Shown piece by piece: positions 59,186 through 59,880 of a stretch of DNA of 64,000 bases. Origin of the DNA: the human T2T-CHM13v2.0 reference genome, Homo sapiens; the NCBI GenBank assembly GCA_009914755.4, contig CP086569.2, forward strand, positions 1,632,001 through 1,696,000, given 5' to 3'. Position 1 is the first letter of the stretch. The number at the start of each line of letters is the position of its first letter. Made by a program: the position numbers and the translations under genes. The notes below the pieces were generated by a model. The model made no database searches, had not been told where the DNA came from, and was given only the letters and a program-made list of their open reading frames with translations.

Positions 59186-59880
59186 GCCAGGCGAAGTGGC
59201 TCACACCTGTCATCCCAGCACTTTGGGAGGCTGAAGCGGGCAGATCACCTGAGGTCAGGAGTTCGAGACCAGCCTGGTCACCATGGAGAAACCCCATCTC
59301 TACTAAAAATACAAAAAGACCAGGTGTGGTGGCTCACGCTTGTCATCCCAGCACTTTGGGAGGCTGAAGCAGGTGGATCACCTGAGGTCATGAGTTCGAG
59401 ACCGGCCTGGCCAACATGCAGAAACCCCGTCTCTACTAAAAATACAAAAAGGCCAGGTGTGGTGGCTCACGCCTGTCATCTCAGCACTTTGGGAGGCTAA
59501 AGCAGGCAGATCACCTGAGGTCAGGAGTTCAAGAACAGCCTGGCCACCATGGAGAAGCCCCATTTCTACTAAAAATACAAAAAGACCAGGTGTGGTGGCT
59601 CACGCCTGTTCTCTCAGCACTTTGGGAAGTCAAGGCAGGCAGACCACTTGAGGTCAGAAGTTCGAGACCATCCTGGCCAACATGGTGAAAGCCTGTCTCT
59701 GCTAAAAACACAAAAATTAGCCGGGCATGGTGGTGGGTACCTGTAGTCCCAGCTACTCGGGAGGCTGAGGCAGGAGAATGACTGGAACCTGGGAGGCGGA
59801 GGTGGCGGTGAGCCAAGATCATGCCACTGCACTGCAGCCCGGGCAACAGAGCGAGACTCCGTCTCCAAAAAAATTAAAAA
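59186..59880 (+). mobile_element. Alu with a tandemly amplified LEFT monomer (4 left monomers of ~133 bp at 59186, 59319, 59451, 59585, then one right monomer), flanked by a TSD
   Basis: GGCCAGG(C/T)G(A/T)(A/G)GTGGCTCACGC.TGT(C/T)(A/C)TC(C/T)CAGCACTTTGGGAGGCT(G/A)AAGC(G/A)GG(C/T)(A/G)GATCACCTGAGGTCA(G/T)GAGTTC(G/A)AGA.C.GCCTGG(T/C)CA(A/C)CATG.AGAA.CCC.T.TCTACTAAAAATACAAAAAG recurs 4 times. TSD AAAGTCATGCACGG / AAAGTCATACATGG. Confidence 0.85.

What the first reader, a model, noticed from the sequence alone, without database searches (positions are those of the whole stretch)
59186..59880. Second Alu left-monomer tandem array (x4) bounded by one TSD
Four ~133-bp left monomers (starting at about 59186, 59319, 59451 and 59585) each end in TACAAAAAG(A/G)CCAGGTGTGGTGGCTCACGC. 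They are followed by a single right monomer and poly(A). The whole structure is flanked by AAAGTCATGCACGG / AAAGTCATACATGG.

This is the same unusual mechanism as at 32.9-33.9 kb, 26 kb away. Two such arrays in 64 kb suggests a locus-specific propensity for short-unit unequal crossing-over.
Basis: seen in the sequence. Interest (0 to 1): 0.5.

Follow-up and report, generated by a model that had tools for sequence, protein, structure and literature searches.

The report
Alu with four tandem left monomers
One old primate Alu retrotransposon has had its 133-bp left half copied head-to-tail to four copies inside a single insertion scar; this is a known, apparently neutral kind of repeat-derived tandem array, sitting in a stretch of DNA unusually full of tandem repeats.

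Summary
Window 59172-59891 is one AluS-type insertion bounded by one target-site duplication (AAAGTCATGCACGG / AAAGTCATACATGG). It holds four gapless 133-bp left monomers, then the canonical TTA linker, one right monomer and a short A-rich tail.

The three internal joints are identical: TACAAAAA|G(G/A)CCAGGTGTGG. There is no non-Alu sequence or variable tail between monomers, so separate insertions are excluded.

M1-M3 share three states (27C, 51A, 103A) that no other left monomer of 109 examined carries together, so they descend from one mutated ancestor. M4 shares almost nothing derived with them. The first duplication therefore happened at or very soon after insertion. The rest followed roughly a third to a half of the way through the element's life. 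Copies now differ by 9-20%, so the array is old and quiet.

The joint lacks the TTA that in-register left x right monomer exchange would leave. The 32.9-kb array keeps that TTA, so the two are not strictly the same mechanism.

The idea of a regional propensity is plausible. The window also holds a four-copy whole-Alu array and a 349-bp Alu-plus-flank duplication, and 32% of it is tandem repeats. No genome-wide test was possible.

This is a known kind of feature and of low interest.

The parts
59172..59185 (+). 5' target-site duplication AAAGTCATGCACGG. The last one or two G are ambiguous with Alu nt 1-2.
   Evidence: Read directly. Matches 59878-59891 at 12 of 14 positions; fixed-register probability 3e-6.
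59185..59317 (+). Left monomer M1 (133 bp), carrying the original 5' end of the Alu (GGCCAGGCGAAG).
   Evidence: 91% identical to the AluSx left consensus (written from memory).
59318..59450 (+). Left monomer M2 (133 bp). Its start is the internal joint TACAAAAA|GACCAGGTGTGG.
59451..59583 (+). Left monomer M3 (133 bp). Its start is the internal joint TACAAAAA|GGCCAGGTGTGG.
59584..59716 (+). Left monomer M4 (133 bp). It is the most diverged copy and lacks the 27C/51A/103A states shared by M1-M3.
59717..59719 (+). TTA, the last part of the canonical A5TACA5-6TTA linker. It is present only at the M4-to-right-monomer joint.
59720..59866 (+). Single right monomer, with the right-arm-specific insertion.
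   Evidence: It has 17-18 mismatches to AluY/AluSx right consensus sequences, of which 6-7 are at non-CpG sites.
59867..59877 (+). Short A-rich 3' tail (A7TTAA), running into the A-rich start of the 3' target-site duplication.
59878..59891 (+). 3' target-site duplication AAAGTCATACATGG.

Best explanation
One AluS-type element was inserted once by L1-mediated target-primed reverse transcription, which made the 14-bp target-site duplication. Its 133-bp left monomer (Alu nt 1 to the A5 run of the linker) was then amplified in place to four head-to-tail copies.

The first duplication separated the M4 lineage from the ancestor of M1-M3. It happened while the sequence was still consensus-like, that is, at insertion or within about the first tenth of the element's life. 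The further copies arose later, roughly a third to a half of the way through that life, most likely by unequal exchange or replication slippage between the already tandem monomers, with some conversion between copies. Since then the array has decayed neutrally and has no demonstrated function.

Shown: a single insertion, in-place amplification, common descent of M1-M3, and great age. Inferred: the order and timing of the steps and unequal exchange as the expansion mechanism. Unresolved: how the very first left-left joint was made. A DNA-level duplication is my first choice, and reverse-transcriptase template switching at insertion is the main alternative.
For: One pair of flanking repeats abuts Alu nt 1 on one side and the A-tail on the other.

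The period is 133 bp with no indels over 3.9 copies, and the three internal linkers are identical (CTACTAAAAATACAAAAA), so the copies have no tails or duplications of their own.

M1-M3 all carry 27C, 51A and 103A. Among 109 other left monomers (47 in this window and 62 in human-contaminant contigs) these states occur in 11%, 3.7% and 1.8%, and none carries all three.

M4 shares no non-CpG derived state with all of M1-M3. Its non-CpG distances to M1-M3 (0.168-0.179) roughly equal the sums of the distances to the consensus (0.169-0.197), as a split at or near time zero predicts.

By my reading of the table, 8 of 9 CpGs must still have been intact at the first split. The script inferred 6 of 9 intact in the M1-M3 ancestor, against 26% intact now. 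This places the M1-M3 radiation at about 0.3 of the element's age. The non-CpG count (3 shared of about 7-8) gives about 0.4.

The right monomer's non-CpG divergence (6-7 of about 117 sites) is like that of M1-M3 (5-8 of 115), so all parts are of one age.

Conflicting rare shared states indicate exchange or conversion among copies rather than a clean tree. 2A occurs only in M2 and M4 (0 of 77 others), 97C only in M1 and M3 (0 of 109 others), and both conflict with 27C/51A/103A in M1-M3.

Precedent exists. Alu-derived tandem repeats are catalogued: 2,663 in the human genome, including 136 with a partial Alu repeated next to a full Alu (PMC3389668). Nine three-monomer chimeric Alus produced by inter-monomer recombination are reported (PMC9675761).
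Against: The internal joint is not what in-register homologous exchange between right- and left-monomer starts would leave. The TTA is missing and the period is 133, not 135-136. No other Alu in the window has lost this TTA.

I saw no microhomology at the exact breakpoints (my reading of the sequences). A DNA-level first duplication would therefore have to start at Alu nt 1 by coincidence, or be followed by a small deletion plus a substitution.

The monomer tree is weakly resolved: bootstrap support for M1-M3 is 53-65%, and the next trees are only 1-2 steps longer.

M4 has more non-CpG changes than the other monomers (13 against 5-8). This excess is only roughly compatible with chance.

The consensus sequences used as outgroup were written from memory.
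Confidence: 0.8

Rival explanations
1. The first left-left joint was made during retrotransposition. L1 ORF2p reached the 5' end (nt 1) of the Alu RNA and switched template to the A-rich 3' end of a left-monomer RNA, or to the linker of another Alu RNA. This would give left-left-right in one insertion with one target-site duplication. Later copies arose by unequal exchange.
For: The joint fuses the A5 run of the linker exactly to Alu nt 1, with no TTA and no microhomology. The first split dates to about time zero, with 8 of 9 CpGs intact and no shared non-CpG change. Single-duplication chimeric insertions with a full-length sense Alu placed 5' of a second template are documented and attributed to template switching or RNA ligation (bioRxiv 10.1101/2025.02.02.635956). 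[quoted passage not shown]
Against: I found no documented case of a left-left-right Alu made this way. An acceptor RNA ending exactly in A5TACA5 is hypothetical. The time resolution is poor: having no shared non-CpG change is compatible with up to about a third of the element's life. T at position 10 of the internal monomers matches the right-monomer consensus, which mildly favours a right x left hybrid origin. Scans for the same joint elsewhere found nothing, but they were uninformative.
Confidence: 0.2
2. The four left monomers are separate insertions of free left monomers, or of truncated Alus, each into the A-rich tail of the previous one.
For: A-rich tails and linkers are favoured L1 endonuclease targets (established knowledge). 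Free left monomers exist as a family (PMC5753468).
Against: There is no inter-monomer sequence and no target-site duplication for any individual monomer. The three internal tails are identical in length and sequence, with 0% indels. M1-M3 share three rare states that no other monomer of 109 carries together. One duplication encloses the whole array.
Confidence: 0.02
3. The whole four-left-plus-right structure already existed in a source gene and was retrotransposed as one RNA.
For: A single target-site duplication surrounds everything. Pol III box A-like and box B-like sequences are present in each monomer.
Against: M1-M3 are clearly closer to each other than to M4 (9-11% against 17-20% divergence). 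CpG patterns show different splitting times. If all copies dated from the insertion they should be about equidistant, unless the source itself was already old. No second copy of the joint was found in the window.
Confidence: 0.05
4. The array is maintained because it is functional, for example as four tandem Pol III promoters or four DR2-type hormone-response elements (AGGTCA nn AGTTCG) acting as an enhancer.
For: Each monomer retains a box A-like segment. Three of the four retain an intact box B-like segment. All four retain both half-sites of the DR2-like motif. That Alu DR2 elements can bind retinoic acid receptors is recalled from the literature and was not tested here.
Against: Divergence of the copies (9-20%) and CpG decay (74% lost) match neutral decay and match the right monomer. 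The same motifs are present in every ordinary AluS. No expression or conservation data are available here.
Confidence: 0.03

Closest known systems
Alu-derived tandem repeats (Jurka and Gentles 2006, Gene 365:21; Ahmed and Liang 2012, PMC3389668)
   Same: Part of an Alu is repeated head-to-tail in place, next to or inside a full-length Alu, and expanded by local duplication. That study counted 2,663 Alu-derived tandem repeats and 136 cases of a partial Alu repeated beside a full Alu.
   Different: Here the unit is exactly the whole left monomer (133 bp), with four copies. Most catalogued cases have two copies and units averaging about 89 bp. Because the copies are only 80-91% identical, this array would have failed that study's filter of at least 95% unit similarity. 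The 8-nt direct repeat GCCGGGCG that the Haber-Louis/Jurka model would use predicts a period of 135, not 133.
Three-monomer chimeric Alus from left x right inter-monomer recombination (Balachandran et al. 2022, PMC9675761)
   Same: There are extra monomers within one Alu-sized element, and the register is monomer-to-monomer.
   Different: Those arise between two different Alus and have breakpoints in homologous segments. Here a single element with intact target-site duplications is involved, and the joint lacks the TTA that a homologous in-register breakpoint would keep. The neighbouring 32.9-kb array fits this model better.
Free left Alu monomers (FLAM) and recently generated Alu monomers (Kojima 2011, as summarised in PMC5753468)
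   Same: Left-monomer-only units ending in the A-rich linker.
   Different: Free monomers are separate insertions with their own tails and target-site duplications, or are deletion products. The monomers here have neither and sit inside one insertion.
Chimeric retrocopies made by L1 ORF2p template switching (U6/L1 and Alu/L1 chimeras; bioRxiv 10.1101/2025.02.02.635956)
   Same: One target-site duplication, parts in the same orientation, and a 5' partner joined at a template end.
   Different: No left-monomer/Alu chimera of this type is documented in what I read. Only the first joint could be of this kind, because M1-M3 arose later.

Membership tests
Dimeric Alu (AluS-type) inserted by L1-mediated TPRT | 7SL-derived left and right monomers, the right one carrying the extra internal segment | tested here: met
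   Rfam Metazoa_SRP hits: four of about 117 nt and one of 148 nt. Alignment to left and right consensus sequences.
Dimeric Alu (AluS-type) inserted by L1-mediated TPRT | A5TACA5-6TTA linker between the left and right monomers, and a 3' A-rich tail | tested here: met
   The M4-to-right joint reads CTAAAAACACAAAAATTAGCCGGG, and the tail is A7TTA5.
Dimeric Alu (AluS-type) inserted by L1-mediated TPRT | Target-site duplication of 7-20 bp directly abutting both ends | tested here: met
   A 14-bp repeat matching at 12 of 14 positions, in the correct register.
Dimeric Alu (AluS-type) inserted by L1-mediated TPRT | L1 endonuclease-type target (TT/AAAA on the top strand) | tested here: inconclusive
   The target reads TTG/AAAG, only a loose match.
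Alu-derived tandem repeat (amplified in place) | At least two head-to-tail copies of an Alu-derived unit with a constant period | tested here: met
   TRF: period 133, 3.9 copies, 0% indels.
Alu-derived tandem repeat (amplified in place) | Copies related by local descent, shown by shared private mutations | tested here: met
   27C/51A/103A occur in M1-M3 and in none of 109 other left monomers together. For M4, local descent rests only on its position inside the single target-site duplication.
Alu-derived tandem repeat (amplified in place) | Initiation between short direct repeats flanking the unit (Haber-Louis/Jurka-Gentles model) | tested here: inconclusive
   The direct repeat GCCGGGCG exists at left-monomer nt 2-9 and right-monomer nt 1-8, but it predicts a 135-bp unit that retains TTA. 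A 133-bp unit without TTA is observed.
Three-monomer Alu from in-register left x right homologous exchange | The joint upstream of the extra monomer keeps the canonical linker including TTA, and the start of that monomer is right-monomer-like | tested here: not met
   The joints read TACAAAAA|G(G/A)CC. The only right-like character is T at position 10, which is also explained by CpG decay. This feature is met by the 32.9-kb array.
Independent free-left-monomer (FLAM-type) insertions | Each monomer has its own A-tail of individual length and its own target-site duplication | tested here: not met
   Identical linkers, no intervening sequence and no indels.
Chimeric retrocopy by reverse-transcriptase template switching | One target-site duplication, the same orientation, and a joint at the exact 5' end of the first-copied template | tested here: met
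   The joint is at Alu nt 1 and a single duplication encloses everything. These features are necessary but not sufficient.
Chimeric retrocopy by reverse-transcriptase template switching | The parts date from the moment of insertion, and the process recurs at other loci | tested here: inconclusive
   The first split is compatible with time zero, but resolution is low. Scans for the joint found nothing, in collections that hold only about 40 Alu linkers or none at all.

The most novel reading that the evidence does not exclude
The TTA-less joint at exactly Alu nt 1, together with a first split dating to about time zero, would mean that extra left monomers can be added during retrotransposition itself. 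L1 ORF2p would jump from the 5' end of an Alu RNA onto the A-rich 3' end of a left-monomer RNA. That would be a present-day replay of the monomer fusion that created dimeric Alu. It would also supply a retrotransposition-linked route for starting TE-derived tandem repeats, most of which have no explained origin (6,817 of 7,276 in PMC3389668). A second, weaker novel reading is that this region is a true hotspot for tandem duplication of 130-350-bp units.
Probability: 0.2. Interest if true: 0.45.

Novelty: new member of a known kind. Interest (0 to 1): 0.17.

Why it matters
On its own it matters little. It is one more old, neutral, Alu-derived tandem array. It is mainly relevant for repeat annotation (it will be split into several partial Alu hits) and as a possible 133-bp variable-number repeat.

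Two modest points of wider interest remain. First, the exact nt-1, TTA-less joint and the very early first duplication pose a testable question: are some TE-derived tandem repeats started during retrotransposition rather than by later DNA exchange? Second, three Alu-derived arrays each bounded by one target-site duplication, plus a fourth Alu-containing duplication, lie in 64 kb that is 32% tandem repeat. This fits the known concentration of tandem-repeat instability in particular regions, such as subtelomeres (PMC7608644), and could be used to test for regional effects on medium-sized units.

Tried and rejected
1. I searched public collections for the same locus or the same joint. The pattern CTAAAAATACAAAAAGRCCRGGYRYRGTGGCTCA gave 0 hits in metagenome contigs and 0 in bacterial/archaeal genome contigs. 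The locus-specific 5' joint gave 0 hits in metagenome contigs. A control scan with the canonical Alu linker found 0 hits in viral contigs and only 37 contaminant contigs in genome contigs. These collections hold too little primate DNA for the negatives to mean anything.

2. I tried to resolve the order of duplications by parsimony and bootstrap. The best tree is (((M1,M3),M2),M4), but support is only 53-71% and several trees are 1-2 steps longer. The rare states 2A (M2, M4) and 97C (M1, M3) conflict with it. I therefore rejected any precise step-by-step history.

3. I looked for a mosaic signature of unequal crossover. Sites where M1 is the odd one out lie at positions 8, 10, 11, 21 and 54. 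Sites where M4 is the odd one out all lie at position 27 or beyond. This is suggestive, but by a hand calculation conditioned on CpG positions it is not significant (about 0.09), so I treat it only as compatible.

4. An unconstrained shuffle test of the target-site duplication was weak (56 of 1000). I replaced it with a register-constrained probability.

5. I considered and rejected three other ideas. An assembly artefact is excluded because the copies differ by 9-20%. Paralogy between the two left-monomer arrays is excluded because cross-identity is no higher than identity to the consensus. An AluSp origin for 103A is excluded because the other AluSp-diagnostic states, as I recall them, are absent.

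6. Sub-threshold Rfam hits to mir-1268 and mir-3135 inside right monomers are Alu-derived families scoring below their gathering scores, so I ignored them.

Full report
WHAT IS THERE

The reported structure exists. Tandem Repeats Finder gives 59196-59716 as period 133, 3.9 copies, 87% matches and 0% indels. Rfam's Metazoa_SRP model places four hits of about 117 nt (59186-59302, 59319-59435, 59452-59567, 59585-59700) and one of 148 nt (59720-59867), all on the + strand. BLAST with Alu left and right consensus sequences, which I wrote from memory, gives L, L, L, L, R at 59185-59872.

The four left monomers can be laid out without gaps as M1 59185-59317, M2 59318-59450, M3 59451-59583 and M4 59584-59716. 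After M4 come the canonical TTA, one right monomer (59720-59866) and a short A7TTA5 tail.

The flanking repeat is AAAGTCATGCACGG (59172-59185) and AAAGTCATACATGG (59878-59891). It matches at 12 of 14 positions and both mismatches are transitions. One copy abuts Alu nt 1 and the other follows the tail. In a fixed register this has probability 3e-6, or about 8e-5 allowing 25 registers. An unconstrained shuffle test is weak (56 of 1000), so the position of the repeat carries the argument.

It occurs three times, and nowhere else in the window. M4 ends in the ordinary linker.

SEPARATE INSERTIONS ARE EXCLUDED

Nothing lies between the monomers. The three internal linkers are the same 18 nt (CTACTAAAAATACAAAAA) and the array has no indels.

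M1, M2 and M3 share 27C, 51A and 103A. Among 109 other left monomers (47 elsewhere in this window and 62 in human-contaminant contigs fetched) these states occur in 11%, 3.7% and 1.8%. None of those monomers carries all three. M1-M3 therefore descend from one already mutated copy.

TIMING

Pairwise identity is 89-91% among M1-M3 and 80-83% between them and M4.

At non-CpG sites, M4's distance to M1-M3 (0.168-0.179) roughly equals the sum of the distances to the consensus (0.169-0.197). M4 and the ancestor of M1-M3 therefore separated while the sequence was still consensus-like.

The CpG patterns agree. By my reading of the table, eight of nine CpGs must have been intact at the first split. The script inferred six of nine intact in the M1-M3 ancestor, against 26% intact today. 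This puts the M1-M3 radiation at about 0.3 of the element's age. The three shared non-CpG changes, out of about 7-8 per lineage, give about 0.4.

The right monomer has 6-7 non-CpG changes in about 117 sites, similar to M1-M3 with 5-8 in 115. M4 has 13, a marginal excess.

The array is therefore old and has been inert for most of its life. Absolute dates would depend on AluS ages recalled from the literature (tens of millions of years).

A detailed order of events cannot be recovered. The best tree (((M1,M3),M2),M4) has only 53-71% bootstrap support. The rare states 2A (M2 and M4 only, 0 of 77 elsewhere) and 97C (M1 and M3 only, 0 of 109 elsewhere) conflict with the M1-M3 grouping. That conflict is itself what repeated unequal exchange or conversion among tandem copies would produce.

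THE JOINT

In-register exchange between the start of the right monomer and the start of the left monomer (shared GCCGGGCG) should leave AAAAATTAGCC and a period of 135-136. The joints instead read AAAAA|G(G/A)CC with a period of 133. The A5 run is fused to Alu nt 1, and I saw no microhomology at the breakpoints. None of the other roughly 45 canonical left-right linkers in the window has lost the TTA.

Two readings remain for the first duplication:
- A DNA-level duplication that either began at nt 1 by coincidence or was an in-register exchange followed by a 2-bp deletion and a substitution before the later copies were made.
- A switch of the L1 reverse transcriptase, on reaching the 5' end of the Alu RNA, to the A-rich end of a left-monomer template. 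This would explain both the exact nt-1 joint and the time-zero split.

Chimeric single-duplication insertions with a full-length sense Alu 5' of another template are documented and attributed to template switching or RNA ligation (10.1101/2025.02.02.635956). I found no documented left-left-right example. The T at position 10 of the internal monomers mildly favours a right x left hybrid origin.

I give about 0.2 to the insertion-time route for the first joint. I give 0.8 to the overall statement: one insertion, amplification in place, neutral relic.

COMPARISON WITH THE 32.9-KB ARRAY AND THE REGIONAL CLAIM

The array at 32908-33876 has six left monomers, one right monomer and one target-site duplication of about 19 nt (AAATTGTTCTAGTGTAAAT / AAATTGTTCTAGCATAAAG). 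It is independent of this one, since cross-identity of 80-88% is no higher than identity to the consensus.

It also differs in kind. All its joints keep AAAAATTA, two joints carry deletions of about 10 bp, and two monomer types alternate (TRF periods 135, 255 and 390). 'Same mechanism' therefore holds only in the broad sense.

- 39346-40640 is four whole Alus with a 323-bp unit. They share private changes and have one target-site duplication.
- 2025-2740 is a 349-bp duplication of an Alu plus about 50 bp of unique flank.
- TRF arrays cover 32% of the window, including 45-bp x92 and 58-bp x62 arrays.

Using the published frequency of Alu-derived tandem repeats (about 0.24% of AluS, PMC3389668), 50 Alus would yield 0.12 arrays. 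The probability of at least two is 0.007 and of at least three is 0.0003. With a five-fold higher true frequency these become 0.12 and 0.02.

That study required at least 95% unit identity, which none of these arrays meets, and it saw no genomic hotspots. The comparison is therefore rough and post hoc. Concentration of long-unit variable tandem repeats in subtelomeres is established (21-fold enrichment, PMC7608644). That this window lies in such a region is my inference and is not shown.

All the Alu arrays here are old (copies 6-20% diverged), so nothing indicates ongoing exchange at these units.

WHAT IS KNOWN, AND VERDICT

Alu-derived tandem repeats are a described class: Jurka and Gentles 2006, and Ahmed and Liang 2012, who counted 2,663 such repeats and 136 cases of a partial Alu repeated beside a full Alu. 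Three-monomer Alus from inter-monomer recombination are also reported (PMC9675761).

This locus is a further member of that kind. It is unusual only in having four whole-monomer copies and a TTA-less nt-1 joint. It shows no sign of function beyond motifs that every AluS carries.

Attempts to find the locus or the joint in the available public collections failed for lack of primate DNA in them. Interest is low. The one point worth following up is a genome-wide census of joint types and of the ages of first duplications.

Noticed in passing
window 39346-40640: Four whole Alu elements lie head-to-tail with a 323-bp unit that includes the A-rich tail. They share private changes (GGTGTCGGGCGCC, AATCTCTTAGAACC; 4 non-CpG states shared by all four) and are bounded by one target-site duplication, AAAGG(G)ATTTCAG. 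This is a tandem amplification of an entire Alu, and the third Alu array in the window with a single duplication.
   Followed up: partly
window 2025-3044 (- strand): A 349-bp unit made of about 50 bp of unique spacer plus an Alu is present twice, next to a third Alu. The pattern is that expected from unequal Alu/Alu exchange duplicating the segment in between.
   Followed up: partly
window 32908-33876: The other left-monomer array has six monomers of two alternating sequence types (CACAAGGTCAGGAGATCGAG and CACCTGAGGTCAGGAGTTTGAG), which gives a higher-order 255-bp period. All joints keep the AAAAATTA linker, two joints carry deletions of about 10 bp, and the start of the right monomer is left-like (GGTGGCTCATGCC).
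   Followed up: partly
window 57719-58229: An Alu cut off at right-monomer nt 83 is joined directly to nt 1 of a second, different full-length Alu. There is no A-tail between them and no clear target-site duplication. TRF reports it as period 218, but the two left monomers carry different subfamily-type features, so it is not a simple duplication.
   Followed up: partly
window 43403-47315, 50713-54330, 14324-15074, 4638-5074, 48259-48758, 12565-12666: A dense set of tandem arrays: 45 bp x92, 58 bp x62, 53 bp x14.5, 49 bp x9, 235 bp x2.1 (95% identical) and 51 bp x2 (100% identical). Overall 32% of the window is covered by TRF arrays, which suggests a subtelomere-like region rich in variable tandem repeats.
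   Followed up: no
window 20464-21230, 21937-22398, 27696-28820, 29638-30542: Four long (0.4-1.1 kb) degenerate (GATA)n/(TCTA)n blocks lie within 10 kb, some with higher-order periods of 54-128 bp.
   Followed up: no
loci L001-L037 (genome contigs): Canonical Alu linker sequences occur in 37 contigs of bacterial and archaeal genome assemblies. Most are short, low-coverage contigs, but several 8-10 kb contigs belong to a 'Roseivirga sp.' metagenome-assembled genome. These are human contamination in those assemblies.
   Followed up: no
window 59718-59769, 58636-58687, 60220-60271: Sub-threshold Rfam matches to mir-1268 (63, 52 and 37 bits against a gathering score of 83), and matches to mir-3135, fall inside Alu right monomers. 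These miRNA families resemble Alu sequence, and the hits are not evidence of miRNA genes.
   Followed up: no
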